Shown here: positions 12,201 through 55,100 of the stretch, piece after piece
Layout of the letters: each line of letters starts with the position of its first letter
Numbering within the stretch: the stretch's first letter is position 1
Assembly (NCBI RefSeq): GCF_000002075.1
Contig: NW_004797271.1
Coordinates: 438,672 to 502,671, forward strand
Source of the DNA: Aplysia californica
Taxonomy: Eukaryota
DNA length: 64,000 nt
Direction: 5' to 3'
Program-made: the position numbers and the translations under genes
The notes under the pieces: generated by a model
Seen by the model: the letters and a program-made list of their open reading frames with translations, nothing else
Told to the model about the DNA's origin: nothing
Databases searched by the model: none

Positions 12201-15200
12201 AGAAACTGAACAGCTCTCGTCGACGGGTCATGCTGGTCAACAGTATTCTGCAGAATGTGCAAGTATGATGTACTTCCTCTTTTTGGCCCATGTTTTCATA
12301 CGTTTTATTAGTTTTATAACTATTAACGCAATCCCGCATAAAACTCTGGTCAGAAAATTACCCCCCCCCCCCCCCTCCCAATAAGAGAAAGGGCATAATT
12401 CTGACTAAAATATTGTTTTTAAAGTTGTTTTTTTAATTGCCTCACATGATAAAAATACCAAATAAACTGCCAAACAGAGATTAAAGATTGAAGTTTTGAT
12501 TCAATCAGCAGTGTCAGTGCTTCTGGGCCTATCCTTATTTTCTGGTTGATCCACTGATGAGCTCTAGTTCTGTCTTTGTGGTTTTATTCGTCTTCCTTGT
12601 CTGACCCATCAACTATATCTAATTTCTCCTCAATATCAGACGTCTTCTGACCAGGTATTAGCCCCATGTTTATTAATCCTCTCCCTTTAATTTTATGATA
12701 ACCGGATAGTTTGCCATTTTAGAAGGGATCAGTTTTGTACTAGATTCAAGCTCTACTTGGGAGGAAAAAGTTCAAGAAACCAATGAGGTTACAGGAAACT
12801 TTCAAGTTGTTTTTCTCAAATGCATTCGGTGTACCCATTGCTCACAAAAGGGACCATATCTCAAAAACTATTACAAGTATCTGGAAATTTTTCTAATAAC
12901 TCCCCCCCCCCCCCCCCGAAAAAACCTAACCCCAAGTCATCAGGGAAGGTCACTCTATGCAGAAATTGAAACAACTACAATTACTTAAAAATTGCACATG
13001 AGGACCCTTTTCTCAGGCAGACCCACAAATTCTCTTTTCCAGTGTAGTGTAGCTAACTATCAAAAGCACTAGTTTAATATTACAAGTATGTCCTGGTATT
13101 TTCGTTTTTGTGTGTGTGTGGGGGGGGGGGGGGTTCATTGCACACACATAGCCCTCCCTTTTCCAGCTTGCCGTTGTCTCTTACCCACTCGACTCCACGG
13201 TGTTGCAAGAAAGGAAAGTTAATGTTGTATCACAGAGAGGGAAAGCTGGCATGTTGCCAGTGTTGCGGGGAGTGAAAGTTTGTGTGTTGTGTTATCAAAG
13301 GGAGGGAAAGTTTGTGTGTTGTCAAAGGGAGGGAAAGTTTGTGTGTTGTCAATGGGAGGGAAAGTTTGTGTGTTGTCAAAGGGAGGGAAAGTTTGTGTGT
13401 TGTCAATGGGAGGGAAAGTTGGTGTGTTGTGTTGTCAAAGGGAGGGAAAGTTGGTGTGTTGTGTTGTCAAAGGGAGGGAAAGTTTGTGTGTTGTCAAAGG
13501 GAGGGAAAGTTGGTGTGTTGTGTTGTCAAAGGGAGGGAAAGTTTGTGTGTTGTCAAAGGGAGGGAAAGTTGGTGTGTTGTGTTGTCAAAGGGAGGGAAAG
13601 TTGGTGTGTTGTCAAAGGGAGGGAAAGTTTGTGTGTTGTCAAAGGGAGGGAAAGTTTGTGTGTTGTCAAAGTGAGGGAAAGTTTGTGTGTTGTCAAAGGG
13701 AGAGACAGCTGGCAAGTTGCTGAAGGGGGGTGTGTTGTCGAAGGGAGTGAAAACTGATGTGTTGTCAAAGGAAGGGAGGGTAAGCTGGCGTATTTCCAGA
13801 GTGAAGTGTCGCAGAGAGGGAAAGGTGGTGTGTCGTCTAAGGGAGGGAAAGGTGGTGTGTCATCTAAGGGAGGGAAAGTTGCCATGTCGTCTAAGGGAGG
13901 GAAAGGTGGTGTGTCGTCTAAGGGAGGGAAAGGTGGTGTGTCGTCTAAGGGAGGGAAAGCTGGCGAATTGCCATAGAGTGAAGTAGTGTCGCAGAGAGGG
14001 AAAGCTGGTGTGTTTTCATGAGTCATAGTCAAGGTGTTTCAGCTGCTGTCTGGAGAGATTGTCAAGTGTCAAGGTTTCTTCGTGCTATACGTCGGTTCCT
14101 CTTTTATTGATCAATTTAATAATACAGTCGAAATTGTCCAAGACAGACGAAGCAGAGAATTTTTTTTCTCGTAAACAGTGTAATCTTAATGTTATTCTGA
14201 AGTTAGGCTTCATTGGCAAGTTTCTGCCTCTCGTGTTTTGCTCTTACTTCCCTGGTGATGGTGTCTAGCTTGGTCAATTTTTAAAAAATTCGGGGGGAGG
14301 GGTGTGCTGACCTGCCTTAGCAAAGAGGAGACGTAGCTTTTAACTGTGACATGACATGGCTGATGATGTCATAAATGACGCTGGGTTTTGTGTTTTCTTC
14401 ATGTTTGGTGATAAAACACGATCAGTTGTCAGGGCAGGGGACTTACACAGTGAACAAGACGAGGCCTTTGACAACATTAGGCGGCTGATGATATCATAAA
14501 CTGGTCATAAAACATGGGTCGGAGGTCACAGCACTGGTGAACACAGTCAGTCAACAAGAATAAGCATGTAGGGTACTGAATCTTTTTGACAGGACAACAT
14601 GATTCGTCCTTTGGGTCATAGACGTAACGTCTATGTCTCTTCTCTCTCACCATCAATAATTCAAGTGTACCTCACGTTTCACTACTAGGAATTTAGGGCA
14701 GCCAAACATTTACTCACTTGAGCCTGAGCTATTTTTCACCCAACAATTATTTCAGCCTGACAGTTTGGGGGTATATTGAATCGTTGACCACAAAAAGACT
14801 GTAAAAGCTAGCATAATATAAAAAAAAATGCAACAAATGAAAGAAAGAATGCTTTCACAGAAAAACAAAGCTGCATCTAATTTGTCCCAATAGTTTTTAT
14901 TTTATCTATATTTTGAAATTGCAATGTCTGGGGTTACACCATTTTTTTAGCGCCCAGTTTATAATAAAATCATCTATCGCAATGCAGAGGTGACCGACCT
15001 TGTCCATTATAGCTAAAAAAAAGCATCACACATAACTTCACCAAATTTTTAACAATACGAAACAAGTGGGTCAACTGTTCGCTCGCTTGCCGCTTCCTGC
15101 AGCTTGTAACCGAAAAACACAGGAGATATCGATCGACAAAGCACATCCCATAATTTATACACGGGATTAGGCCACCGGGCTTGCGGTGCGTCCCATAAAT

Positions 15201-26639: not shown

Positions 26640-29600
26640 GTATGTGCATGCATTATTCTTCAAAATCCCGAAGTATCATGTCTAGGACTCCTAGCCCAAG
26701 AGCCCCCCCCCCCCTCCCAGCAAGTCTCGAAAGACGCGACAACTAGTGTGCATGAACTTAAGTTGACCCCGTCAACAGACAGTAGCACATTGAAACAGTT
26801 TTACAGACAAGTCTTGATGATGGGCCCGACTAACCAGAACTTGGATACTGCTTATTTTGACAGAACTATGGCTAATATTGATCATTTGTATGCCGCAACT
26901 GATACAGTTATCAGGCCATCATCGGAGAATTCTGAGTGGAAACAAAGCGAAAGTAGATCTTGAGAATGTCCCGAGCTGGAATGCAAAATCGATACTACTT
27001 TTATTATACTTGAAATAACACATGCAAGCAAAGATCCAACACAACTTGGGATGAATCAACTAATAAACCGGCATCAACGTTTCGGAAAATGGAGCTCCAA
27101 GTTCCTGCCGACAAAAAGTTTAACGGGGCCTCCCGCAACAGAGAAGAAGGAAGAATAAATTTTTAGAAAAATCCAGCTCAACAGACGGCACCCAAAAAAA
27201 TCGGGATATACGTGGTCGAAATCAGGAAAATCGGGAGGCTTGAGATTTCAGCCTTATCTGATTAAATCAGGATGAGTAGCAGGTCTGCAACAGTTATTTT
27301 TTTTTTGTTCTTCTCCATTAAGTCGTACAACAACAGTCATATTATTTCTTTTGTTCTACATTGGGCCATACATCACAGTAAAAAAAAAAAACCCAGAGTA
27401 GCATGTATCATAATGGTCCTAACCTTTTGATTTAGTCATTTTTTCTTCTTTTGAGACATTTCGGGGAAGAAGAAAATACTGTACGAAAAACCCCCCACCA
27501 AAAAACAATGTTTTCATTTGCTGCAAAATGCTTTTCCTGTAAGAGGCTCGTTTCCCTTTTAGACGAGGATTTTTTAAAGGTACAGATTAAGAGGAACAAA
27601 TAACACTGCATAAAAGTATATGGAAGACAACAGAGAAAAACAAAGAACAGAAGATTTTGTTTGACACATAATTCCCTGTACTATGAAAGGATTTCAAAGC
27701 CACATTTTAACCTTTTTCCCGTTTTTTTTTCTATGCATTGCAACCTTTCTTTCCATGAAATCTGCTCAAAATTAAGAAATACTCATACCCGTGAAGGTGC
27801 ATATTATCATGGTTTTACTGTGCGACATAGCAGAAAATATTAGAACCTGGATGGCAAATTTTAAAGCATGCCCTACTACAGTACTTATATGTCCTAGATT
27901 CATTTTATCGAACCAATAGCTCTACCACTCTTATCTTCCCTGAACCTTTGGTCAATCTTGTTCTCATGGTCACCTGTCCAAGCATCCACTACTTACTTTC
28001 CACCTTGCATTATAAAAAAAAATGACACTATCCACAACATACACCTGTCTAAGATAACCATTTTTTTTACATCCACAATGGGTGGTGTCTTAGATTACTA
28101 AAATGCAGTTATGTTAGCAAAGTCAAGACCATGCAATCGGAGACAGAGCAGTAGAAAACGCCAGGCCTAATGGCAATTTAACATAAAGAAGAAGATGAGG
28201 AGGAGGACGAGAAGGAAAAGCAGCAGCAGCAACTACAGCATTTTAAGAGAGAGAGAGAGGGGGAAGAGAGAGAGAAAGGAGAGAGAGAAAAGAAGACAGA
28301 GAGAGAGAAAGAGAGAGAAAGAGAGCAAGAGTTTGACTCACAGGAGCCAGGCCTGGACACTCATAGACAGTGTAGTCTCCCTCCACATTATCCTCTTCTG
28401 AATCGTCATCCGATGCGTCGTGCTTCATGTCCCCGTTCGCTCTGAGGACAAAGTGGTGAAATAATAATAATAAATAATATTTGTAGAGCGCATATCCCCA
28501 CTCAACAGCAAGCCCTGTGTGCTTTACACTATATTACATAATTAAATGGTATAGGTTGAGAAAGTAATTTCATTCAGTGTTTAAGGCCATTGGCCCACAT
28601 CACATCACATAAAATGGTATAAGTTTAAACTACCCTATCAACACTATTACGTTATTTAACCCTATCTGTACGTCGTGTTTTATTATTGTATCCATACAAA
28701 GTGGGGAAATCTGTGCCACCACTTTCCAAAGAGAAAATTTACTCGTTAATCTAATCCGTACACTTTGCATAGCAGTCTGTCAAAATGATTTTTTGAGAAA
28801 TACCGAAAGTTTCAAAGCGATCTTCGCACTACAAGTATTCTAAAATGTGAAGAATACAACCCCAGGGGTACAAAATGACCCCAGGGTGTACGGATAGGCC
28901 CCAGGGACACAAAATGACCCCAGGGCGTACGGACAGGGTTAAGAGGCGGGACCTCCAAGGTTTAACGTCCATCTACAAAAGGACCGAGCCAAATGGGAAA
29001 TTTGTGTAAAATGCCTTTCCCGCGGACACAACATTAGACTGAGCTGAGGCTCGAACCCCCAAACCCTCAATCTCACAGATACGGGTCTGGTAGACTATCC
29101 ACTAGGCCACAGATGCCTCTGAGGACAACGGTTGACGTTGTGTCACACCCAAACAGACATTACTGAGATCTCATGTCGGAGGCTGGCTGCTTCCCCCCTG
29201 CCCGTCATGTTTGTTTGAGTAATGAAAATACAAGTCATTTCGCATTTGAGGAAACTAAGAACATTTGAAAAAATATGAACCAGAGGCGCCATCCGACCCA
29301 TCTACACCCCCACCCCCAAATCCCTAATTTATTTATCCATGGTTCATCTGTAGTTTCTGATGCCCGTAGTGGCACTCAATCCAACCACCTACTTACTCCT
29401 TCATCACAATCAACTGTGGTTTCTTATGCATTGGTACACCCTCCAACCACCCATCCACTTCTCTATAGAGGATTCTTCTGTTATTTCCGATGCTGGTAAT
29501 GGTGCACCTGTACACCCTCCAGCCACGCATCTACCTCTCTCTAGAGAAATCCTCTGCTGTTTCTTATGGTGGTACACTCGATACACCCTCCAGCCACCCA

Positions 29601-32600
29601 CTTACTTTTCCATGGCAATCATCTGCTGTTTCTGGTGCTGGTAGTGGTACATCTGAGCGCTCTGTGCCAGCTTCCTGTCGCCCGGTGAGGGGATTCGCTC
29701 CTTCATGGGACCTGTCACGCCATAGGCCGGGTACTCTACATCCGTGGCAGCTTTGCTGCTCTTACGAAATCTGGAGGAGGGAAAAAGAGAATAATTGTTG
29801 GGGAATTGTTAGTTTTAGCATTGTAAGTTTTAGTTTTAGTAGAGGTATTACGGCGCTCGCAACTGCATTAGGTCATATGAGCGTCTGAAGATTAGAGGTG
29901 TTACAAGAGAGTAACAAACATAAAAAAGAAGAAGGGGAGATAAGGACAATAGATGTTTGATAGGAAAGAAGAAGCAAACCACGCCAGAGCACCCGCCAAC
30001 CACCCACTAGCATTGTAAGAGTTTTACAGCACTTGCGACACAATAAAGTCATGTGTTACAAAAGAGTAATAATAAACTCATAATCAATATTTGGAGAAAA
30101 AAAAACACAAAAAAACAAACACAAACAACCCAACCACACAACAGGCCACAGCAGAGCATCCACCAACCATCCGCAAGTTTGTTTTTTTTTACTTCATAGC
30201 ACACGGACCTCGGTTTGAGCGTAAAGAGAAGCACATCCACTCAATAACAATTTAGTGTTACAAAAAAAAAAGAAAAAAAAGTGATACAGACAGAAACAGA
30301 GGGAGAGAAAGGAAAAAGGACCCACCAGTGACACTTTCCTACTAACCATCACAGACAAAAACAACAGAAGGAAAGAAAAGAAGTAGGGTCTCTCATTGAC
30401 ACTCTCCAACCAACCAACCACTACACTCAGAAACAGCAGAGGGTAACTACAAAATCTGGACATAACAGTTGCACCCTCCAATAACCCTCTGTAACAATCT
30501 ACATATTCATAATCAGATGACAATTACTCAACAAAATAATATGTTCAATGCTTATAAGAAAAATGAAGGGAAGACCACACAATGAGCACTCATCAATCAC
30601 ACGCAAGACTTAAATTCCAAAGTGTAATAATCACAGACAATCTATTGGAGAAATTTACACCTGTATTGGATACAGATATTTACATCTATATTCGCAAGCA
30701 ACAAAAAACCCAAACAATCCATTCTCGAGTAAATCCCACCCGAGATTCAAACCACCCTCTCTGGTGTTCGCTCACCTTGATATATCTCTGGACCGATGAT
30801 GCATGGCTGAAATATCACTACTACTATTATCATCGATGTTATTATTATCATCATTATTATTGTTAATATGATTATTATTGTAACTAAAATGACTGTAGCT
30901 ATAATACATGGGCCTCCTTTCATCCGAAGCATACATTCCCCGTAGGCTGCGATTGGCCGGATGTGACGCAGAGGACGTGGAACTGCGCAGCAACGAGTCC
31001 GACTCTAGCCCATCTGCTTTCTTCTGCTTGTTTACACAATCTGATGTATGGGAAGGTGAAGGGGGCTTCCCTTTGCCTCGCAGAATTCTGCATAGCTCAC
31101 TAAAACACATGATGTCTATTTATCCATCAATCTACCACCAGTCTGTTGCACAGTTCACTTAAGCACACAATGTCTGTCTATCTAACTATTCACCTATCAG
31201 CACAGCTCAATAAGATGCATATCTGTCTTATCTTATCATTTATTGATCCACCTATTCGTTGCACTTAAGCTATCTTTCTGTCTATCCATGTCTTTATTTA
31301 CACAGCTCCCTAAAGTTCAGCCAATCGGTCTACAAGTAGCACATATGTACAAGATTTTCAAACACAATACTGCAATAACAAAAAATCATGTACATCTATG
31401 AACTGTATAAATATCATAAGCGCCGAGAATTTCCAAGTTCAGTGGTCGAGATATTTACAAAGTAACAAAACAAAATGTTTGCATTCCACACAAATGCACA
31501 CAGGAACGAAATCATGAAAGCTACATCACATGTCCCAATATAAAAGTCCAACCAAACAGTTCTGGTACTGAGATATCTTCCTCCAATACGTTCCGACTAC
31601 CCCCAAAGCTGGAGGATCACACTCCAACACCAACAATCAAGCCCTGCCACATTTGCAGCACTTCATGAAACATTCATGCGCCTCATCTCTCACGAGCATA
31701 AATGTCTGCCCAATCTGTGCACACCCGCCTGTATTCCAGCCTGCACACCAGAACTCACTCATGAACAGTGGACAAACACGAGCTTGCAGAACTCAACTTG
31801 TGACACCGGCTTACATAAACCAAAGCCCAAGTGGTAGCTCATCACATGTTCCGCACAATGTCACATGCTCCATAAACAAAAAGCCATGAAAATCTCCTGA
31901 GGAAGGACACGCCACGTGACAGATGTACCATCTAAAGGAGAGCCCATCAACAGACCCTTTCACAGAGCACAACTCCTTTCACTGAGAACACAACAACCCC
32001 TTTGATTAAATTCAAAAACCCCATTCACAAATCTGAAATTCATCCCTGCTCCATCTTTTCTGTGAACATGACATCTTTTTCACCCCCTCATTCTCTCCGC
32101 CTAGCTTTGCCTTTAATAAGCCAAGGTTCTGAATGTTCATATTCTCTCCCANNNNNNNNNNNNNNNNNNNNNNNNNNNNNNNNNNNNNNNNNNNNNNNNN
32201 NNNNNNNNNNNNNNNNNNNNNNNNNNNNNNNNNNNNNNNNNNNNNNNNNNNNNNNNNNNNNNNNNNNNNNNNNNNNNNNNNNNNNNNNNNNNNNNNNNNN
32301 NNNNNNNNNNNNNNNNNNNNNNNNNNNNNNNNNNNNNNNNNNNNNNNNNNNNNNNNNNNNNNNNNNNNNNNNNNNNNNNNNNNNNNNNNNNNNNNNNNNN
32401 NNNNNNNNNNNNNNNNNNNNNNNNNNNNNNNNNNNNNNNNNNNNNNNNNNNNNNNNNNNNNNNNNNNNNNNNNNNNNNNNNNNNNNCCCACCACCACCAC
32501 CCTGGTCACATGACCTCGGGAAGTCACATGAGAGGTCATTATGTGCCCTGTCTGTCACAACACTGAGCAATTGGAGCGCGACATTTGAGTGACAGCTAAA

Positions 32601-35600
32601 ATACACTTGGGGACAGTAACAAGCTAGCCACACAGATCAAAACAACTGATTCATGAGGGAGGAGGCAAGGAGGAGGGAGAAAAGCAGGAAGGGAGAGGAG
32701 GAGAGGAGGGGATAGAGGAGGGGGAAAGGAGGGGAGAGGAGGAAAGGAGGGGAGAGAAGGGGGAGGAGGGAGTAGGTGGGAGAAGGAGGGAGAAGGTGGG
32801 AGGAGGAGAGGAGGGAGAGAGCATGTGGGAGGGGGAGAGGAGGGTGGGAGTAGGGGGGAGAATGAAAGAGGTGGAAGGAGGCAGGGCAAAGAAAAGAGAG
32901 GGTGGGGGAAGGGGAGGGATTTGTTTTAGTAAAAGTTTTATGACACAACACAATAAGGTCATATAAGTGCCGAAGAATAAATGTGTTACAAGAGAGTAAT
33001 ATACCCAAAAAAGGAGGAGAGATAAGGACGATTGATTGGGGTCAAACAGTGTCTTTGTCTTTTATCATTTCAGTTACAATAAAACTAATAAATGGAAGAC
33101 ACACTGTTTTGACAGAGGTTTTTGTGATGTTTCATAGGAAAGAAAGAGCAAACCATACCAGAGCGCCCACCAACCACCCATGAAGGGGAGGGGAGAGACA
33201 GAGGAAAGGAAAGGGGAGTGTGAAGCAAGGGGGAAGGGGGGAAAGGGGAGCACATGCCATCTGTCTGACCTGTTGATTTGTTTGAGTAGCGAAACACACA
33301 TCCACACCATACTGGTCTCTAAGATGAAATGCCACAAAAAAGTAAGAACAGAAGACGGGGACGACAGAAAGTAAGAAAAGAGGTAGGGCCAACAGGTGGT
33401 GCATTCTGACCACCTAGTTTGGGACTCTCTGGGAGTAAATTCACCACAAGACAGAAAGGACAAAGGAGAAGAAAAAAGAAACACAACCTACAGATGGCAC
33501 CTTCCAACCACCAAAAAAGCAGACTAAACTTTGTTTGTTTGAGCAATTGTTTTAGTATGAGTCTTAAGGCACTTGCAACACAACTGGGTCATAATATAAG
33601 GGCCGAAGATTCCAGGTATTACAAGTGAGTTACAAACATTAATAAAGGAGGAGAGATGTTGACGATAGATATTTGACAGGAAAGAAGAAGCAAACCACAC
33701 CAGAGCACCTGTCAACCACCCGCTGTTTTGAGTCAAGAGAAACACACCAACATAATTATAATCATAAATTGCAAGGGAAAAAGCAAGACAGACATACAAG
33801 AACAAAATAGGGAAAGAAAACGAAGTATGAGCCATCAACAAAACCCTTCACCCACCACACAGACAGAGACTCTAGAGGGAAAAAAAAAAAGAAGTGCGAC
33901 ACACAAGCAACACCTTTCAGTCACACACACAGAGAAAAAACAATAGCAGGAAAGAAAAAAGTCCAACATACCAGTGACACCCTCCAACCACCCTTATACA
34001 CAGACAAAAACAATGGTAGCAAAGAAATAGAAAACCAGCTTCACCCTCCAACCACCCGCATTCACAACAAAACAAAAACAATTAAAGAGTAAAGAAAAAG
34101 AAGACCAGCGACACCCTCCTTTATTTGTTTTAGTAAAGGTTTTACGGTGCTCGCAACTGCATAAGGTCATATAATAATAATAATAATAATAGATAGCATT
34201 TGTATAGCGCATATCCCCGCGTGATATGAGCGCCAAAGGGTGGATGTCAGCAGAGAAGTCCTTACAAGGAATCACGCTTACTCTGCTCACCTCTCTAGCT
34301 TCAACAGCACAAAGTCTGCTTCGACTATCAAGGCATCCCGGAATTCGGAAATAGCTGGTCGCAAAAGAGTGGCGCACAAAAGTAATAGAAGAAAAATGAC
34401 GATAGTAAGGATAAGGAAAGAAAAAGCAGCAGTTCCCTGTTGCAGTTCAGGTACAGTTATGAGCATGACATAAATGAACCAGCCCATTTACAATTCAACT
34501 GTGCATAAGAACATGGTTAATGTCCCCCCTTTGGTAATGGCCTTAACTCTTCATGTCCTTAGAGGATTTTCGTTCTGACCGAAGCCTCCCAGGGACTGCT
34601 CCTATACAGCAGTAGGGTGGGTTATAAAAGTCTACATAACTTTCAATCTACTAGGCCCACATCAAAACTTTTGGTATGGTTGTGTTAAGAAATGAAAGTT
34701 GCATTTATTGGTGTTCATTTTAGATACCTTTACTGAAAAATAATATTAGACTATTCATTTTAGATACCTTTACTGAAAAATAATAATAGACTATTGAAGT
34801 AAATGGCCATTAGCAAAAAAAAATTTGAGTAATTATTTGAAGTTTCCAGGTGAAAGATGAGGTGTACAATAACCATTTATAAAAAAGTCACATTCACATA
34901 GAATAGGCCTACATATTACGATGAACTAACCTGAATAGAGCCTCAACAAGATCCAACATCTAGATATAGATTTATAATATCCAAATGGAATGAAAACTTT
35001 GTCACTGTATAATCCAAACAATAAAACTGTCACTATAATTATTTCAGGAGCAATCTCCAGCCATGATAATCTCCCTAACCAAAACACAAACAAATTATAC
35101 ACAAAAAAATCAGCTGTTTAGAAACAAGCCATCAAATCTAGCATACGCGCCCACACAAACGCTACAAAATGAAAGTACAAACAGAAAAAGACCTATTTTC
35201 GGCATTTGCTACCATAATTTCGGTTGATGTCGTGAAATATTAGTTTCGCGTGTATTTAATGAAGGCTAGTGTAGCCAGCCGGTGTCAACGGCTCGCCGGC
35301 CAAACCCACTTCGCGCCGAGCCGCTCCCACCGGCTCACCGGACATGAAGAGTTAAGACACTTCAGTCAGTAGCACCGCCCCGGTGGTGGTGGGGGGGGTG
35401 GGGGGCCTCCAGCTGCCCACATTCACAAACAAAAACAATTACGAAAAAGAAAAAGAAAACCAGTGACACCCTCCACCCACGGGTAAAAAGTCAAAGTTGT
35501 AAACACTTACTTGTAGTAGCAGACACCAGCCATCAATATTCCGATGAATCCTGTTACTGTGGCAACTGCACACACAACTGTGGACAAGAGAACATCTTTG

Positions 35601-38600
35601 TGGTTAACTCATCTTTCAAGACATAGCAGACACATATATGTGTGTGTGTGCCTGATGAAAGGTACCAAGTGATGCATTTTGAAGAATCCTGTTTTTTGGT
35701 GGGTTTTATGAGCATTGTCATGTACAGAGATCATTTTTGCACAATATGCTTTTTAAATTTGTAAGATACCTTCAGTCGTTTTTTTAGATATGGGTGATTT
35801 TGTAAGGCAGGGTGCAGAAACAAAATTTTGAGAAAAACGGCTCAGAAGATTCCCCTTTGCTCCTGCTTTGTGGATTGCTTGCGACGATATAATGATATTG
35901 ATGACAGATCAAGGCTTGGCACAGAAAATTTGGAATAGTCAGAGGAGACAGCACCATGCTGACGATAAACTGTGAGGAGTCTGGGGTAGATAATTGTGAC
36001 AATGACGATAGATCATGAAAACAGGGGAGATAATACCACAATGAATAACTGGTGATTGATCATGGCTAGGCATGAAAAAAGACTTAGTATCCAGAAAATT
36101 GTATTCATTACATTACATTTTAAGAATAAAATTATAGAGTACAGCCCCCACCCCATGTCTTTACTCGCACATTACGGCCATAATAACCCCCTGTTCCCTT
36201 TCCCCCTGAGACATTTTTGCAGCCCCATTGTAACCCCCTGCTGTTGTGCACTAGGTCAAGCAATTACAAGAGGGTGGGCTGTTCTTTACTTTCACTCATA
36301 TTTTTTTCAATTTAAAATGGATTAGCTGTTCTTTACTTTCACAGAGATATTTTTCCAGTTACAAATGGGTGAGCTGTTCTTTGCTTTCGCCCCACAATCT
36401 TCTTGGGGGAAAACAGAGCAAATCGGTTCCTTTTTAACTGTTTGATTTGTTCTCCCTATATCCACACGATCATCTTAGAGAATAAATTTTAAAAAAAAAA
36501 AAAAGAAAGCAAATTGGTTCAACTTATAGATTAACTGGGTGATTTGAACTACAAGAAAAAAAAAAAGTGATTTGTATTATCTGTACCCCTTACATCCAAA
36601 GGTGGTGGGGACAAACCCCAAAGGGTTCTACTCACATACAAAATTTTTGTCATCGGTTGCCATAAACTTGGATCCCTCTTCTTCCTGAGAAGGGCCCGGG
36701 TGATGAAAACGAGCTGTCTTGCCAGGCGGTGCATGCGTCTCAGGGGCAGCGTTCTCCGGCTTGTCAGTTTGAATGTCCCCCCCTGGTGCAGCAGGAACAT
36801 ACTGGGGTTCGACTTGTTCTAGATTGAGTCCCTGAGAGTTGCCCTGGGCCGAGACTTGCTGGTCAGCGTTCTCTCCCTTTTTGTCTGGACAAACCCAACA
36901 GAAAATTTTCAAAATAAACAAATTAAAAAATACAAATAAATAAACAAAATTCCACTTTAATTAATTGATTCCGTAAGGGAAATTTTAGTTAAATTTTAGT
37001 TTTGAATTTGAGCAAAAAGGAAAACATTGACAAAATAGTTGTAATTTAGATAGGAAAAAAATAAAATACGTAAGAGGCAACGGATAGAAGTAGAACCTAG
37101 CTAAAAAGTAACAACTGCAGCCTATTGTTTGTTAGCTTGCTGGAGTTGAGGGAAGCACATGTAACTACACAGTATCGGCTACTCAAAAAGCGGAGTAAGA
37201 CAGACACGTAGAAAGCAGGGGAAAGAAAAGAAGTAGGAACTGCAAAGTCCAATAGCGCCTTCCAACCACTCACACAAACAGAAACAACAGAGAAAGAAAA
37301 GATGCAGGACCTGCCAGTAACATCCCCAATCACCCACACAGATGGAAACAAGTCAGGGGAAAGAAAAGAAGTACGAACTACAAATGCTGCCCTCAAACCA
37401 CTCACAAATGCAGTTTATATTATGTTTAGTTTTAGTAAGAATTTTACAGCACTTGCTACACAATAAGGTCATATAAGTGCCGAAGATTAGAGGTGTTACA
37501 AGAGAGTAACAAACACATTTTTAGAAGGACGGGAGATAAGGGCGATAGATGTTTGATAGGAAAGGGGAAGCAAACCATACCAAAGCACCCATCAACCACC
37601 AATGCAGTTTATATTGGAAATTGCAGATTTAATTGTTTTAAAGACAAACAAAAAAGTACCACATAGCGACGGCAGCCAAAACATACGAGAAACCACAACG
37701 CATCACAGCAGTCACCCTGACTAAACTAATGTCACCTAAATACATACATAATGAGGTCCCACCAACCGAGTTGATTACCCGTAATGATTATGACCCAAGA
37801 GTCCCAGAAGTAATTATCACAGGTCACCAAAAAATGTCCACCATTGAGTAGAAATGGGTTGTGAGTGCCACCATTCATCATACTATCATGACAATAATTG
37901 CTTCCACAAAGCATGCTCCTATTATTGATACTTTTTTCTTAAATTGCTCGTTCCCACCACTATATCCGTTACTGTGTCAAGTGCATCTCTTAACTCAAAT
38001 AGAAACAAATAAAATGCAGTTATTGCATGTCACTCGATGTTGTATCCCTTTAGATAAAAGAGAGTAACAAACAAAAAAAAGGAGGAGAAATCAGGATGAC
38101 AGATGTTTAAGTCTTAGTAGATCTAAGTGTTTTACAGCACTTGCAACACGAAAAGGTCATATAAGTGCCGAAGATTAGAGGTGTTACAAGAGAGTAACAA
38201 ACACAACAGAGAAGGAGGGGAGATAAAGATGATAGAAGTTTGACAGGAAAGAAGATGCAAACCACGCGCACCCGCCAACCATCCATGAGTGGAAGAATAA
38301 GTGTTACGAGGAGGTAACACTCAAAAAGAAAAAGAAAGAGAGATCAGGACGATAGATGTTTGGTAGGAAAGAAAGAGCTTTTAGTTTTTGTAAGAATTTT
38401 ACAGCACTTACAACACAATAAGGTCATATAAGTGATGAAGATATAAGAGTTGTTACAAGAGAGTTACAAACACAGAAAAGAAGTAAGAGAGATCAGGAAA
38501 ATACATGTTTGATATGAAAGAAGGAGCAAACCACACCAGAGCACCCACCAACCACCAGCAAAGAAAGAGCACTGCCTGTATGAAAAATATAACAACAACA

Positions 38601-41600
38601 CTGCAGTTCACACCGTCAATTTGACTGCCTATATGGAGAACATGACAACAACAGCAACACCTGTCTATATGAAGATTATGTTGGCAAAAAGCAACACTAT
38701 TCACAGTGAACTCCCTGCCGGTATGAGAACATAACCATAACTATAACAACAACAACAGCAGCAGAAGCACCATCAACAGCAGCAGCAGCAGCCACAATAA
38801 CAGCAACAACAGAGCTCACACAGTCAATCAACTCACCGGCCTGTATGGCAGGTCCCCGCTGCAATGCATTGTCAAGCTTCTGCTGCTCTGTCAGTTCTTC
38901 GATGATTTTGGCGATTAGTTTATCGTTTTCAGGAGCAGAATCTAAGATGGAAAATGGATTTTTTTTTTCATATTGGTGTCAGAGATTAATTCTGAAAGAA
39001 GCAGCTTTGAAGGGAATGCTGAACTGCTACATATAAAATTATGTGACCAGTGCTGTTATCAACATCAAAACAAGATTGTGTGTCTGTGATTGCTTAAAAG
39101 AATCTTTTTTAAAGGATAGTGTGGGGGGGGGTGTACTATGTTCCAATTGTAATCTTTTCTCATGTCTGTCCGTCTGTCTCTCCTCTCTCTCATCCCTTTC
39201 TCTCTCCGGCACAAATTTGAGTACAGACATTCCCACAAAAAAAAGCGTGCACACACACACACACCCAAGTACTCATGATCAATAATGACAAACATCCCCT
39301 TTGTAACTGGATGACATCTAATAACCAAAAAAATCTTTCCTCAGAGAACATATATGCAGTAAAACTCTGATAACCCGAACTTCATGAGACCAGAAAATAT
39401 CGTCGTGTTAAGCAGAGAGCTAATGAAAAGAACACCAAAAAAAGGCGAATTGACTCTTCCCTTACTTATTCAGATGAAATGCTAGGCCTCGGGTTACCAA
39501 TTTTTAGCCATTAATAACACGGTCAGAGCTACCAACCTTGGGAAATCAATAAAAGGGAAACCTTATTTTCATCCTCAAGACCGATGTCTTACTTATCTGC
39601 ACAGAATGAGGCTAGAAGAAGATTGTAGGTTTTTACTTGATGGTTTTCCAAGCTACTTCTCAGTTTACCAAACAATAACAAAACAAGGATGGAATTGATA
39701 AATCTTAGCGGCACATTATAAAGAATATTAGAAAAAATATTTTTTTAAACGAGACATTACTATCAAATTAGGAATGGTTGGCAGATTCTCAGTGGGGTTT
39801 TTTCCTGTCTCGTAAAGTGTGTGTGTGTGTGTGACTGTGTGTGCGCGTGTGTGTGTGTGTGTGTGTGTGAGTGTGTGTGAATTGTGTGCTGTGTATTTAC
39901 AACAGTACGCAACTGTGGTTCGAGAAAAAAAAAAAGAAAGGAGAAGTGTCCGTGTAGAGAGTGATGAAATAGTCCAAAATTCATTCATATTAACTAGATA
40001 GATCTGATGATTTGTTTCATCCTTTTAAGGAAAGATAGTGGATAGTTGCAATGCAGAAAATAAAGATGAAAAAAAAGAAAGAAGGATTTTAAATCCTTTC
40101 GTGTTAACAAGAATCTTGTGTTACCTCTTAAAAGACATAACGGACACACGTCCGACCAGCAGCAGACCAATGGCAGTGTTGCAATAGATTTAGAGCCATT
40201 TCACATAAATGAGTAACAAAAATTTGTATATCTCACAGTATGCATGTTGTTCTTAGGTTTCTAAGTTTCAAATAAAGGAAACAAATGAAAAATCGGTATG
40301 AGAAACGAAATTGCTTGTTTTTTTAAAGTGCCCCCAAAACAGTGCATCTTCAACAGGTTAAGCGGCTTCAAGTCTACTGTATGGGTATTAGGAATGTTGG
40401 TCGATACACATTAAAGCTCACCAGAAACAAAGGCACTTTTTAGCACAGATTTCAATTTTGATAAAGTGGTTCAACCCCCCCCCCCCCCCCGATAACAGTC
40501 CGGAAAATTTGGCTTGGTCACATTGAAGAAAATGATCTGGCAGGGGGAGTTAATAAATCATGACCCTGTAGTGACGTAGCACTGGGAGAACATCTCCCAC
40601 CCTGTCACTTGAACTGCCAGCTGTGGTGGGCATTGTGTCAGCTGGGCACGAAGCACAACACACATTAGATGATATATCAATGGCTCAGAGCTAGAAGTTA
40701 CTCTTGTAGGCCCTACAGTTTAACGCCCACATCAATACTTTCTAGATAATTAAAGATCGCAGTGGCGGTCGACCTTTTTAGTAAGAGTTTTACAGCACTT
40801 GCAACACGAAAAGGTCATATAAGAGCCAAAAATTAGAGGTGTTACAAGAGTAGCAAGCACAAAAAAGGAGGAGAGATAAGGACGATAGATGTTTGATGGG
40901 AAACAAGGAGCAAACCACACCAGAGCACCCGCCAACCACCCGGGGTAGACCTTTTGTTCCACTAAACTGACTGTAAATGTTTCAAGCCCCCATTTGAAAC
41001 AATTTAGATAATTAAGGAGGCAGGCTGCTTCCACCCAGCCTATCGGAACCAACTCAGGCAAACAGGGATACAGCTTCCCAACAAACTTTTAGAGATACTA
41101 GTAGGGAAAAAAACAAAACAACCAACCTGCCCACTTGAAGAATCAAACTTCCATCTTGTACTAAGTGACTGCAAAGAGGCAAACCAACATACCAGAGATG
41201 CCACAATATCCATGTGACTATGTCTAAATTTTTCAGCTTTGAGAAAAATGGATTTTTACAGCAAAAGCATAACCGCAAACACTTAAACACAGAAACATAA
41301 AAGGAAGTGTAAGACTGCAGTGAAACCACTGGCTAGATGGCTGTGATATTTACAGACTATGTGAGATGTCATTTGAATGCTTCAATTTGATTATTTTTAG
41401 CATTTTGGTCAAAATAGATATTATAGTCACTTCTGGCTCTCAGTCTCTGCTGTGATATATATCATATTACAAAACTCCAGAGCGGCTCTTTTGAAACACA
41501 CGATGAAACACGAGTATAATGTCCACATCTCTGACACATTGACATTAATTTAAGTTGTTACAAAACACAAGAGTTTCACATCAATTCAAACTTGAATGTA

Positions 41601-44600
41601 TTGACCAAATTCCAGGTCGCTTACACTTTATGATAAAAATAAACTGACACAATTACAAGGTTGTTATTATTTCTCAAAGTTCATTCAAGGACATAATATT
41701 GTTTCTTTTGTCACGAGCAAAAAGAAAACATTTTTTTTTTAAAGGTAAATAATTATATTATATGGTGTTTACATTATTTACTGTGCTAAAAACTTTGACA
41801 AACTCCCATAAATATCTCTACCCAGTTTTAAACTCCACACCACTAAAAAATGTACATAACAATATTATATTAAAATCAAACCCCAGACCTTAAAACAGAG
41901 AGAATCCCCTTTACTCTTGGAGGGGGAAAAAAATCCATGTTAAAAAATTGATTCCTATGATGACTGCCTAGCAGTATCATCCTGGCAAAACCTGTTGTCT
42001 GTGTTGCTAGAACAGTTTCAACAGTTATCTGTCTTTAGCTTTCTTTATTCATCATGAGAACTTGGAAGTAGTGCATAGTTGAAGGGTAAAATACTACTCT
42101 CAGCCTTCACTATCACAGTTCCTTCAGGAAAAAGTAAAGAAGTCTATAAATAGAAGCAATCATGTCTTTACATTCAACTTGACCTAGAAAAGGTTACATA
42201 ATTCTTCCTGTCATGTCTAGCAGACATCTGGGAAAGTTCCCATGCACCACCGCCACAACCATAGAGTGTAGAATGGTTTGGTTACATGGTAGACCAACAC
42301 AGGAAGGGAGGGGTGAGACAGAAACACAGAACAGTTTTCTTTGTTCCCACGCCACACCAAGAACTATGACATTATACAATAGTTTTAGAATCTGGTAAAG
42401 CTTAAGAAAAAAGACATGCTTGTAAGAATGTAACCNNNNNNNNNNNNNNNNNNNNNNNNNNNNNNNNNNNNNNNNNNNNNNNNNNNNNNNNNNNNNNNNN
42501 NNNNNNNNNNNNNNNNNNNNNNNNNNNNNNNNNNNGAAAAAAAAGAAAAAAAAAAGTTGAACTAGTAGCTCCACTGTTTAAAAACATTATTTCTTCAAAG
42601 TTCTGGGTTTTTTTCTTCAAATTTTGTACACATGCCACAGTTTAATTCTTAATCTCAATTAATTCAAACTCCGACGAGATAAGAAATCTTTTATTTTTTT
42701 ATTTCATGACATAACTTATATATGAAGAGTAATGTTCCATTATAATGTTACGATTCAGGCTCTGGAACAATATTATAGTTCTCGTTCCTCTTAACCAGAA
42801 CAACCATGTCCTTGCCTTTGACTCATTGAAGATTAGCATTCTGGTCATGCGGCAACGCTTATAGGCACCCTGTTGGAGGCACTTAAAATTCTTATCAAGA
42901 AAAATAGAGTATATGATTCCCTGATTACACTTTTCCTGGAGATATTTTAATTGTTTTCTTTACACCTGAGTATGATTCCCTGATTACACTTTTACTGGAG
43001 ATATTTTAATTGTTTTCTTTACACCTGAGTATGATTCCCTGATTACACTTTTACTGGAGATATTTTAATTGTTTTCTTTACACCTGAGTATGATTCCCTG
43101 ATTACACTTTTACTGGAGATATTTTAATTGTTTTCTTTACACCTGAGTATGATTCCCTGATTACACTTTTACTGGAGATATTTTAATTGTTTTCTTTACA
43201 CCTGAGTATGATTCCCTGATTACACTTTTACTGGAGATATTTTAATTGTTTTCTTTACACCTGAAACTGAAAAGGGCAGACAACAACATACAAATAGAAT
43301 GCGTCATGATGCGGTGGAATCAGGCGCTTGTCAATTTTTGTACACAGAGTTGTGGGTTATAACCTTAAAAAGTTACAGCTTATTCATTGTCTGCTTTTGA
43401 TGAATAAATCATCCATCTTCTATCTTCAATAGAAGTCGAGATATTTCAGATTGAAAGAGGTGAGGTCACTTGGTTTCAGAAGTAAAATTAGTCTAGAAAA
43501 TGGCCCCCAAAGTTTGGTGACCTCCAAAGCTTGAGAGTCTTTGGAAACTGTACATCTACATTTTTTGTATGCCTATAATCAAAGTTTTTCAATAAAGTCC
43601 ACACAGAAAAGTGTTGAGCCAAAAAATAAAGATATGATAAAAATTGCCAAACAGGAAGAAAACGCCATTTTCTTAGATTTCATTATCTTGACAAGCGCCT
43701 GATTTCACCAGGAAGCCTCACATACCATGATGTAAATTCAAGTTTCTGATTAGTGTACGAGGGTTCTATATGTGCGATACTCAATTATCATAATTATTTT
43801 ATTTTATGTCTGAGCAGCAGCAGACCGAGGGAGTGTTACGGCACATATAGAACCCTCGTACACTAATCATAAACTTGAATTTATCCATTATGTTCTTACA
43901 CCTTGGAGTGTAAAAAGTTCCCCTACAAAGTGCAAGATTTAACCTCTGAGATAAATAAAATCTAGCTACACCTCTAGGAGAAAATAATCCTAGGACTGAG
44001 CAGACTTCTATAGATTGGGTTTTTCAAAAGAAAGAGCAATCTACTGTCCCAGGAGTGCTGCGTTATTACTTAAAACTGATTTGAATTACTGGAATCAGAA
44101 TAGTTCATAGTAGTTTAGCATTTCACACTATAGAGTCGCTGGGTGGGATGAATGATGTCTAAAATAAAATTTTTGGGTTGTTGTTTTTTGTAAGTGTTTT
44201 ACGGCGTTCGCAAAAGCTGAATATGGTCATATATGAGGTCATATATTTATGTAATATGTGCAACTGTAGTAGAAATTAGAAAAATAAAGTCACCGATTTT
44301 TTTTTCTCCCCAACAAAATTTTCCCTGTGAATCCTTTAAATCAAACAGACCAATGAACCATTTTCACATCATTGTCTTCATTTCATTATAACAAATTAGC
44401 CGACATCACATTTATTTTTAATTAAAACGTTTTGATGATAACACACTGTATAACAGTACAGTAGGCCATAAGTGACTGAGCCAACACCTTGCTATCTATC
44501 ATCATACTCATTGTGAACATTAAAAAGTTAGGGTATTTTTGCAGTATTGGGCCCGTTGAACTGTTTTAACCCGTTCCTGCGGGAGTCGGATGTTCCCCAA

Positions 44601-52100: not shown

Positions 52101-55100
52101 TTTGGTATATTGTAAATAAGTGAGAAATGTGGTAGTTCCTGTACAAGACAGAGGGATATTGTAGGTATGTGAATGTGGTAGTTCAGGTACAAGATAAAGG
52201 GATATTGTAGGTATGTGAAGAATATGGTGGTTCATGTACAAGATAGAGGGATAGTGTAGGTATGTGAATGTGGTGGTTCATGTACAAGATAGAGGGATAG
52301 TGTAGGTATGTGAATGTGGTGGTTCATGTACAAGATAGAGGGATAGTGTAGGTATGTGAATGTGGTGGTTCATGTACAAGATAGAGGGATAGTGTAGGTA
52401 TGTGAATGTGGTGGTTCATGTTCAAGATAGACGGATAGTGTAGGTATGTGAATGTGGTAGTTCATGTTCAAGATAGAGGGATATTGTAGGTATGTGAAGA
52501 ATGTGGTAGTTCCTGTACAAGATAATAGGTGAGATGTTGTGGGTATATGAGGAATGTAGTAGTAAGTGTATAGGTCCTTTCCTGGTCGTCAGTCGGATAG
52601 TGTAGATAAGTGAGAAATGTAGTAATGAACGTACTGGATAGTGGAATATTGTGGCGTGCTCTTTGTGTACTATATATATAACAAGACTAATTGTACCAAT
52701 GAATAGATTGTTTTTTCCATTATTAGTAACAACTGTTTTTCACGCCTTCATAATTTTTTCATTATGTGGGTTTGACACCTCTTTCAGCATTGTACACTTA
52801 TTAAGGATGAGGAAGGATGGATGGAGGGGGAGTAGTCAAGAAGATAGTCAAGAAAGTTAACTTGCAAATGATCAGTTCTTCAATTTTTCTAGCTTATTGA
52901 TGATAGACTTCTGCAATGGTGTGACTGTCATTTCTTTCGTAAAATTTGTTTGTGTCCTGAAAGATTTTAATTCAGCCTGCCTCTTAAAAGATTTTAATGG
53001 TGTCAATGGAGGCGGAAAAAAATGTAACCCCCCCCCCCCCCCAAACTTAGAGGAAAAAAAACCTAGGACAAAATTAACCACTTGCAACTTTTCGAAGTGT
53101 TTTATATATGACATTGAGACATTGATATCTTATTTATTTCTACAGCCCACCCAAAAAGGAACGCCGGAGGAAATTGCGGATTACATCCGAGAACACGACT
53201 GTCTACATTCATTGACCACGGTCAGCGTCTGCTCACGCAGGACACCGGAGATACAGAATGTTCTTAAGGCAGTCTGGAATATTGGGTCCTACAGTTCAGG
53301 TGAGTGGGAGTATATATATATATATATATATATTCCTGTTCTCTCCTTTAATCTATCTCTCTCTCTCTTATCTTATCNNNNNNNNNNNNNNNNNNNNNNN
53401 NNNNNNNNNNNNNNNNNNNNNNNNNNNNNNNNNNNNNNNNNNNNNNNNNNNNNNNNNNNNNNNNNNNNNNNNNNNNNNNNNNNNNNNNNNNNNNNNNNNN
53501 NNNNNNNNNNNNNNNNNNNNNNNNNNNNNNNNNNNNNNNNNNNNNNNNNNNNNNNNNNNNNNNNNNNNNNNNNNNNNNNNNNNNNNNNNNNNNNNNNNNN
53601 NNNNNNNNNNNNNNNNNNNNNNNNNNNNNNNNNNNNNNNNNNNNNNNNNNNNNNNNNNNNNNNNNNNNNNNNNNNNNNNNNNNNNNNNNNNNNNNNNNNN
53701 NNNNNNNNNNNNNNNNNNNNNNNNNNNNATCTCTATATATCTCCCTCTCTCTTTCTCTCTATCCCCCCTTATCTCTTCCTCTCTATCCCCCCTTATCTTT
53801 TCCTCTATATCCCTCTATCCCTCTTCCTTATATAATATCTCCTCCTTTATCCCTCTATCTCTCTCATCTCCACTATCCCTCTATCTGTCACAATCTCCTT
53901 TTATCCCTTTCTCTTTCAATCTCCGTCTATCTATCCATCTGTCTCTTTCTATCTATGTTCCTCCATCTCCATCTATCCCTTTATCTCATTCAATTAAGCC
54001 GAAGGGCTAGAACCCATATGGCTGCTGGATCGGAAAAAGTATCTCATTCAATTTGTCTTTTTCTTTTTCTCTTTCTCTTTCTCTCTCTCTCTACACCCTG
54101 CCTCTGCACACCTCATAATTGCTATGAGATTTTCTTCTCACTGTAATGGATAGAAAGAAATTATTTTGCTCAGTGAAGAAATTTTGTTAGTCCAGTGTAT
54201 TTTTTTTCTCTTGTATTTGTTGGTAGGTCCTACTTCTTTTCCTCCCCTCTGCTGTTTCTTCTGTCTATTTGTCTTGCTTTTTTCCCTGGCGCTAAACTAA
54301 ATGACTGTTATTGTTATTGTATTGGGTGTGTTTTCTTTATCAATGAATCATAATAGTGTGTTGTTGGCGGGTGCTCTGGTGGGGTTTGCTTCTTCTTTCC
54401 TATCAAACATCTATCGTCCTTGTCTCCCCTTCTTTTTTTTTATGTTTGTTACTCTCTTGTGACACCTCTAATCTTCTGATGCTCATATGACCTTACGCAG
54501 TTGCGAGCGCCGTAAAACCTCTACTAAAACTAAACTAATGAATCATAATAATATTCTTGTATTGTCGTCTCATGACGCTCAATGTTAAAAACAATAAGGA
54601 AACAACAAATGCAGTTTTTGGGACACCTGAATAGACATAAGGGTCTTGAACATGTATCTCTCACTGACAAAATTGAAGGTTGTAAACGAGGCAGGGGTAG
54701 GCCCAGAGCAACCTACTTAGGGAACCTAATCAAATGGGTAAAAGGGAAAGATCAGGGAAACTTAGCTTTTTTAAGAGCATCCGAGCAAAGGAATGAATGG
54801 AGAACCATGATTGTCAATGTCTGTCGCAGATCTGGCACTAGATGATGGTGATGATTGTCGTCTCTTTTTGTTCCAGAGGGCTCTGCCTCCTTGATCAGTG
54901 GTCAGTCTGGCCGGTCCGGGGGAAGAAGGGAAAGGTGAGTGGATTGTTGTTGTTAATGGTGTTGTTGCTGTTGGTGGTTGGAGTGGTGATGGTGTTGTTG
55001 TTGGTGGGGGTGTTGTTACTGGGATTTTTGTTGTTGTTTTGTGTTTGTGTGTGTGTGAGTGGTATAGGGAGCAAAAGAATCAGTTGTTGTGGTTGTTTAT

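What the first reader, a model, noticed from the sequence alone, without database searches (positions are those of the whole stretch)
29320..29655. Tandem array copied from an exon/intron junction creates decoy splice donors in the NPDC1-like gene
Seen: the last ~45 nt of exon 5 (encoding the conserved MYHYQHQKQQMIAME) plus its donor and ~25 intronic nt recur as about four decaying copies in the intron. One copy retains a consensus donor, GAGTAAGTAG (~29387-29396, minus strand). Inference: repeated local duplication at the junction leaves alternative 5' splice sites that could give extended or NMD-targeted isoforms, or must be actively silenced.
Basis: partly seen in the sequence, partly recalled or inferred. 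Interest (0 to 1): 0.7.

Follow-up and report, generated by a model that had tools for sequence, protein, structure and literature searches.

The report
Jumping-gene end copies splice donors
In a sea-slug NPDC1 gene, the end of an exon and its splice signal are repeated four times in the next intron, the extra signals show no use in the RNA data examined, and the repeat was likely seeded by a short jumping element that sits in similar repeats behind exons of at least seven other genes.

Summary
The array is real. It holds four decayed copies (71-76% identical to the original) of 47 nt of Aplysia californica NPDC1 exon 5, its donor and about 28 intron nt.

The functional reading fails. Three transcript assemblies splice only at the authentic donor. 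An in-frame TAA follows that donor at once, so no downstream donor could lengthen the protein. Only one copy keeps GTAAGT, and it is weaker than an ordinary decoy in intron 6.

A decayed tail of that element follows the array. The same build (exon tail + donor + head, repeated) recurs at seven other loci. Short-period head arrays lie behind coding-exon donors in 9 of 27 cases, against 2 of 56 single heads (P=5e-4); the cause is open.

The closest known case is the human F7 intron-7 minisatellite, whose pseudo-donors are silent. The scan earlier noted a donor minisatellite in RCBTB1 of this genome; it lacks the head. Verdict: neutral at this locus, and a new variant of a known kind genome-wide.

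The parts
29606..29770 (-). NPDC1 coding exon 5; its last 47 nt (29652-29606) are the exonic part of the repeat unit
   Evidence: Pfam PF06809 E 6e-12; P0001 100%; both junctions seen in RNA contigs
29578..29605 (-). Authentic donor GTAAGT at 29605 with in-frame TAA at +2..+4, then the G-rich SINE-like head (29601-29583)
   Evidence: head pattern counts
29507..29577 (-). Copy U1; pseudo-donor GAG|GTAGAT at 29534; head with 1 mismatch
   Evidence: 75% identical to U0; 0 of 1000 shuffles
29431..29506 (-). Copy U2; pseudo-donor GAA|GTGGAT at 29458; head equals the commonest family form
   Evidence: 76% to U0, 77% to U1
29375..29430 (-). Copy U3; pseudo-donor GGA|GTAAGT at 29396, the only consensus hexamer; decayed head
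   Evidence: 71% to U0; 4 of 1000 shuffles; PWM 2.5 against 4.5
29300..29374 (-). Copy U4; best-kept exon part, donor GT lost, head strongly decayed
   Evidence: 73% to U0; 0 of 1000 shuffles
29208..29257 (-). Decayed 3' part and (CAAA) tail of the family-A SINE-like element, same orientation as the heads
   Evidence: nhmmer with profiles built from loci outside the window: E 0.003 in 511 nt; 7.1 bits, 0 of 1000 shuffles
28342..28441 (-). NPDC1 exon 6, splice partner of the authentic donor
   Evidence: Pfam E 4e-6; loose-end consensus at 29606 in X5, X18, X9
29820..30007 (-). Younger family-B copy sharing the same head, ending about 50 nt before the exon 5 acceptor (not part of the array)
   Evidence: very deep pile-up, sharp edge at 30007

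Best explanation
The array is a decaying minisatellite of exon 5's tail, donor and the G-rich 5' end of a SINE-like element that likely inserted just behind the donor and likely seeded repeated slippage duplications; the copied donors show no use in the RNA examined and are likely neutral. Steps: (1) A family-A retroposon inserted in sense at intron +5 (inferred from the head there and the tail remnant behind the array). (2) A duplication joined the head's 3' end (GGGTGTA) to the exon (GATGTA) through a TGTA microhomology (microhomology shown, mechanism inferred). (3) Slippage or unequal exchange raised it to five units, U1 and U2 last (inferred from the identity matrix). (4) The copies decayed while the exon unit stayed constrained (shown as a star-like pattern). 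(5) Splicing keeps to the upstream, strongest donor (shown within the limits of contigs); any leak would be a premature-stop transcript (frame shown, NMD inferred).
For: Head: the 18-mer pattern has 18,853 genome matches against 159 for the reversed control. Of 96 sites with the 17-mer variant, 59 continue into body A, 17 into body B and 20 have the head only. Family members show target-site duplications (L027 11 bp, L120, L121; L053 in the printed flanks) and simple-repeat tails. A tail remnant lies 40-90 nt behind U4 (0 of 1000 shuffles). The head duplicates readily: 71 matches for two heads 26-56 nt apart and 327 for 57-87 nt (controls 4 and 5); the 100 listed of the latter are mostly element-internal units of about 67 nt. 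Of 26 hand-picked donor+head loci, 8 carry exon-tail+donor copies between heads at p<=0.005: NPDC1, L127 (fn3), L182 (LMBD1), L173 (rabaptin-like), L142 (C2), L204 (KCNT1-like), L212, L266 (exon support). Several arrays end in a clear element body (L142, L204, L182). RNA shows only the authentic junction.
Against: At this locus only about 19 nt of head and about 35-50 nt of tail are recognisable, and I saw no target-site duplication by eye. About a fifth of head matches are head-only, some of them chance. Heads capture upstream flank only about twice as often as random sites (13 of 122 against 74 of 1235, P=0.05). The RCBTB1 donor array has no head, so the element is not required for such arrays. 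RNA evidence rests on contigs, which drop rare variants, and on 18 raw reads in X23; no NMD-inhibited sample was available. X5 has an intron contig at depth 8 against 88 for the exon (unspliced, adaptor-ended). No related sea-hare genome could be examined to show an empty site.
Confidence: 0.68

Rival explanations
1. Ordinary donor-spanning minisatellite with no retroposon role: the G-rich stretch is a chance or native intronic G-run, and the element tail downstream is an unrelated insertion.
For: The genome is rich in local repeats: 5-6% of random positions have their upstream 50-mer repeated within 300 nt. The RCBTB1 array lacks the head. 20 of 96 head matches have no body. Element remnants are common in the window.
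Against: Family matches outnumber the control about 27:1 (732 against 27). U2 carries the family consensus head. The tail follows in the right orientation and order. Seven other loci show the same build, some with full bodies.
Confidence: 0.15
2. One reading: copied donors are used at low level or in certain tissues to make premature-stop, NMD-targeted transcripts that tune NPDC1, or must be actively silenced.
For: U3 keeps GTAAGT. Any use gives a stop upstream of two junctions. In human CBS and the 6-16 gene the nearest pseudo-donors are used (PMC1557585, Introduction passage). Low-depth intron contigs exist in X5 and X18.
Against: No copied-donor junction appears in three assemblies, although intron contigs at about 1% of exon depth are kept in X18. 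The nearest copy (U1) has lost +5G, and U4 has lost its GT. The copies have diverged 24-29% from U0.
Confidence: 0.08
3. The units were made at insertion time by reverse-transcriptase template switching between the element RNA's 5' end and the target DNA or nascent pre-mRNA, so the process is tied to real, transcribed donors.
For: Unit lengths vary within arrays (L127, L183, L204). Arrays sit behind sense-strand donors (9 of 27 against 2 of 56), with no matching antisense-acceptor class. The NPDC1 units diverge in a nearly star-like way.
Against: L192 and L173 show near-identical units and higher-order repeats, which points to growth after insertion. Donor-adjacent copies with well-kept family-B bodies (L169, L176) have single heads. 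Antisense insertions near acceptors may simply be purged.
Confidence: 0.09

Closest known systems
Human F7 IVS7 37-bp VNTR; also CBS intron 13, LMNB2, PDGF intron 4 and the 6-16 gene (PMC1557585: abstract, Discussion and Introduction passages read)
   Same: The first monomer spans the exon-intron boundary and the donor is reiterated in the intron. In F7, LMNB2 and PDGF only the authentic site is used.
   Different: Here the copies are old (71-76% identical) and carry 47 exonic nt (F7: 4). No length variant was seen in the one other DNA run. The intronic part is a retroposon-like 5' end shared with arrays at other genes.
TE-derived minisatellites (Ahmed and Liang 2012, PMC3389668: abstract, first part of Results, section 3.4 read)
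   Same: A TE segment is duplicated locally after insertion. The paper reports 5' partial Alu duplications, and slippage at short direct repeats as the model.
   Different: In the parts read, the units are TE-derived. Here most of the unit is host exon and donor captured upstream of a 19-nt element end, and the arrays cluster behind exons.
Mollusc SINEs (Matetovici et al. 2016, PMC4758252: passages and supplement search)
   Same: Short interspersed repeats with target-site duplications and (CAAA)n or ACTAAA-type ends.
   Different: No RNA-family head was found. The head 10-mer is absent from the four supplement files searched (file 1 not searched), so families A and B are not assigned to a named family.
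Scan note e1-9588257: RCBTB1 donor minisatellite, same genome
   Same: Exon end and donor copied in tandem into the intron; judged harmless.
   Different: Its units carry no G-rich head.

Membership tests
Donor-spanning minisatellite (F7 IVS7 type) | First unit spans an authentic exon-intron boundary | tested here: met
Donor-spanning minisatellite (F7 IVS7 type) | Donor reiterated downstream | tested here: met
   3 of 4 copies keep GT, 1 keeps GTAAGT
Donor-spanning minisatellite (F7 IVS7 type) | Most upstream donor used, pseudo-sites mostly silent | tested here: met
   Three contig sets; rare variants may be dropped
Donor-spanning minisatellite (F7 IVS7 type) | Copy-number polymorphism (VNTR) | tested here: inconclusive
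   One DNA-like run spans it without a gap; too few individuals
Donor-spanning minisatellite (F7 IVS7 type) | Near-identical monomers | tested here: not met
   61-77% between units: a fossil array, not an active VNTR
SINE / non-autonomous non-LTR retroposon (families A and B) | Short, high-copy, dispersed, fixed 5' end | tested here: met
   about 135 and 165 bp
SINE / non-autonomous non-LTR retroposon (families A and B) | Target-site duplication and simple-repeat 3' tail | tested here: met
   TSD-like match in 3 of 4 family-A copies checked, and L053, L169; none seen at the NPDC1 copy
SINE / non-autonomous non-LTR retroposon (families A and B) | tRNA-, 5S- or 7SL-derived head with Pol III boxes | tested here: not met
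   No Rfam match at E<=1 in 28300-30600, which holds a family-B copy and family-A pieces; hence 'SINE-like'
SINE / non-autonomous non-LTR retroposon (families A and B) | 3' tail shared with a partner LINE | not tested
   No search made
Regulated unproductive splicing (alternative 5' site to NMD) | Alternative donor used in transcripts | tested here: not met
Regulated unproductive splicing (alternative 5' site to NMD) | Premature stop upstream of an exon junction | tested here: met
   TAA at +2..+4
Regulated unproductive splicing (alternative 5' site to NMD) | Rises on NMD block; conserved in relatives | not testable with these tools
   No such run; no related animal genome is held
Intron gain or exon duplication by tandem duplication (definition recalled) | Copy supplies a usable acceptor and an open frame | tested here: not met
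   No pyrimidine tract before the copies (sequence); in-frame stops

The most novel reading that the evidence does not exclude
A sea-hare retroposon end duplicates splice donors: when its G-rich head lands just behind a real, transcribed 5' splice site, a transcription- or splicing-coupled process repeatedly copies the exon tail and donor into the intron. This has built decoy-donor arrays in at least eight genes, a natural series for testing 5' splice-site choice and a recurrent source of junction sliding.
Probability: 0.25. Interest if true: 0.7.

Novelty: new variant of a known kind. Interest (0 to 1): 0.42.

Why it matters
At NPDC1 itself it matters little: it is a silent fossil of a type known from human genes. 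The wider pattern is the useful part. One repeat end appears in exon-capturing arrays at eight loci, and short arrays of it sit behind coding donors far more often than single copies do. If that holds genome-wide, it names an origin for donor-spanning minisatellites, which I did not find in nine literature searches (open-access library only). It also offers arrays of different age and donor strength in a neurobiology model for testing the 'most upstream donor wins' rule outside mammals.

Tried and rejected
RNA search: no listed holder was on record as RNA, which is no evidence either way. The first lay was swamped by two dispersed repeats, so its joint table says nothing on this intron; exon depth in X21-X23 was only about 1-8.

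Other copies of the whole array in the genome: none found. Rfam: none.

Donor targeting by the element: 161 of 18,853 heads follow GTAA, against about 102 expected from base composition (my estimate). Most of the 29 inspected had no exon. Single heads are not significantly enriched behind exons (2 of 56 against 7 of 416, P=0.29). Not supported.

General flank capture by heads: weak.

A Pfam-only exon test was underpowered: 2 of 28 short arrays, 2 of 31 multi-head and 0 of 56 single sites. Searches used one training exon out of frame; one search is the corrected run. One duplicate row (L262) was dropped. In one search the L218 donor was set one base off; it was not counted as a member.

RyR (L192) copies only about 6 exonic nt plus donor and fails the shuffle test (p=0.14). 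L183's exon lies in an N gap. Neither is counted.

An inverted similarity between the exon tail and body A (I2) was judged compositional. Truncated '...MEK' isoforms: none from Aplysia among 120 listed homologues; 3 of 93 with the motif end within 12 residues (P0036, P0047, P0064), likely single-exon gene calls. Two-tier G-quadruplex-like runs exist in the heads but were not tested further. PDB searches for L143, L137, L191, L264 and L212 gave nothing significant.
Full report
Gene and observation. The window holds Aplysia californica NPDC1 on the minus strand: the exon-5 translation is 100% identical to P0001 and hits PF06809. Exon 5 spans 29770-29606. Behind its donor lie four decayed copies of [47 nt exon tail + donor + about 28 nt intron]. 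The exon tail alone matches each copy beyond shuffles (0, 0, 4 and 0 of 1000). Copies are 71-76% identical to the original unit and mostly 61-63% to each other, which is what independent decay beside a constrained exon would give; U1 and U2 (77%) are a later pair. A contig from run X1 spans the array with one other letter and no gap.

Are the copied donors used? In one search I laid four runs on 29085-29800. X5, X18 and X9 each hold a contig whose loose end at 29606 is the start of exon 6, at exon depths of 88, 389-659 and about 1400-1850. None has a loose end at a copied donor. X18 (29309-29587, depth 3.5) and X5 (29375-29516, depth 8.3) hold colinear unspliced intron pieces; X9 holds none. 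X23 gave only 18 raw reads, none over the copied donors. The RNA status of X5, X9 and X18 is not on record, but their spliced junctions show RNA origin. Contigs drop rare variants, so low-level use is not excluded. Reading through the donor gives AAG TAA, so any downstream donor makes the same truncated product, lacking 73 residues that are largely conserved in gastropods. With a generic recalled PWM the copies score 1.8, -2.0 and 2.5 against 4.5. The five introns checked hold six GTRAGT decoys in 11.6 kb, U3 included, and the one in intron 6 is as strong as the authentic site. The decoys are therefore neither unusual nor strong.

What the intronic part is. The G-rich stretch after GTAA recurs eight times in the window against 0.01 expected. 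The pattern has 18,853 genome matches against 159 for the control. It is the sharp 5' end of two short dispersed families: A (about 135 bp, CAAA tail) and B (about 165 bp, ACTAAA tail), with target-site duplications in several copies. No Rfam head was found, so I call them SINE-like. A profile of 14 family-A copies from outside the window hits 29242-29208, directly behind the array and in the same orientation (0 of 1000 shuffles). The simplest history (inferred) is insertion at intron +5, then duplication of upstream host sequence plus head through the shared TGTA (exon GATGTACC, head GGTGTA), then further slippage and decay. The family is prone to this: two heads in tandem give 71 and 327 matches, mostly element-internal units.

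A recurrent class. Searching for heads behind GTRAG gave 85 matches, 76 clusters. Searching for short-period head arrays without any donor requirement gave 27 clusters. Among 26 donor+head loci picked by hand from these and the first sample, eight carry statistically clear copies of exon tail and donor between heads. Besides NPDC1 they are L127 (fn3, E 5e-4, below Pfam's cut-off), L182 (LMBD1, E 6e-9), L173 (Rab5-bind, E 1e-7), L142 (C2, E 1e-3), L204 (KCNT1, E 2e-4), and L212 and L266 (exon model only). Others, such as a ryanodine-receptor exon (L192) and a SAM-domain exon (L213), have arrays that copy only a few bases. A small exon model (16 training exons, own locus left out) finds a coding exon with a donor within 48 nt upstream in 9 of 27 short-period arrays, 2 of 56 single heads, 3 of 31 other multi-head sites and 7 of 416 random flank positions. 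Arrays against singles give P=5e-4 at score 10, and 1e-4 to 0.03 over thresholds 8-20. The best antisense 'exons' were the reverse strands of the same exons. Upstream GC is only slightly higher for arrays (0.46 against 0.42). Among 30 RCC1-exon loci not chosen for the head, one (L276) had a donor-containing array with a decayed head and B-like sequence.

Against the reading. Flank capture by heads overall is barely enriched (13 of 122 against 74 of 1235, P=0.05). The Pfam-only test was not significant. The exon model is crude and the samples are small. Why arrays favour real donors is unexplained. Candidates are microhomology between the head's 3' end and exon or donor sequence, slippage on a G-rich non-template strand near 5' splice sites, template switching at insertion, or biased retention.

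Comparison with what is known. Minisatellites whose first unit spans a donor are described for human F7, CBS, LMNB2, PDGF and the 6-16 gene; in F7 only the most upstream site is used even when the copies are identical (PMC1557585; abstract, Discussion and Introduction passages). TE-derived minisatellites and 5' partial Alu duplications are described in PMC3389668 (abstract, part 1 of Results and section 3.4). PMC4758252 (passages; four supplement files searched, file 1 not searchable) did not let me name the families. PMC10078293 (passages) shows that repeats can alter splicing but added nothing specific. The locus works like an old F7-type array. It fails the near-identical-monomer feature and is not shown to be polymorphic. 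I found no paper on a retroposon end seeding exon-capturing donor arrays, which cover open-access full text only.

Verdict. Observation confirmed; regulatory reading not supported; origin most likely a SINE-like insertion followed by slippage (0.68). Novelty: new variant of a known kind. Interest 0.42, carried by the genome-wide pattern rather than by this locus.

Noticed in passing
window 30776-31093 (-): 318-nt stop-free stretch in intron 4 between CAG and AG|GTGAGC, in phase with exons 4 and 5, like a cassette exon. It had no reads in X21-X23, exon 4 joins exon 5 directly in the runs, and it had no match among 120 NPDC1 homologues.
   Followed up: partly
window 29452-40941: All 7 strict head matches in the NPDC1 introns lie on the gene's sense strand. 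Antisense copies may be purged because the reversed tails look like acceptors (inference).
   Followed up: no
window 29820-30007; L141, L143, L176: Family-B tails end shortly before real acceptors in several genes, so the elements may be enriched on both sides of exons.
   Followed up: no
L169 (G000:C556:177050-178450): A family-B insertion behind a donor whose target-site duplication repeats the donor downstream of the element.
   Followed up: partly
L164 and L165 (G000:C484:448300-450900): An O-methyltransferase exon with donor and head is duplicated almost identically 1.2 kb apart (recent duplication or assembly artefact).
   Followed up: no
L142 and L143 (G000:C196:1035232-1036118): Two neighbouring introns of one C2-domain gene each start with a head array.
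   Followed up: partly
L276:335-575 (G000:C122): RCC1-repeat exon followed by a decayed head and a 42-nt array containing AT|GTGAGT and family-B-like sequence; found without selecting for the head.
   Followed up: partly
L307:3817-4902 (G000:C390): Dense donor array without the head, matching scan note e1-9588257.
   Followed up: partly
window 42912-43264, 13268-13702, 52126-52524: Young minisatellites (59 bp x6 at 99%; 27/59 bp; 46 bp x8.5).
   Followed up: no
window 28590-29075: A second high-copy dispersed repeat with 37-38-nt inverted arms (28656-28693 and 28905-28942) in intron 5, possibly a MITE.
   Followed up: no
window 29679 (run X18): A depth-5 contig joins mid-exon 5 to unrelated sequence; likely a chimera.
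   Followed up: no
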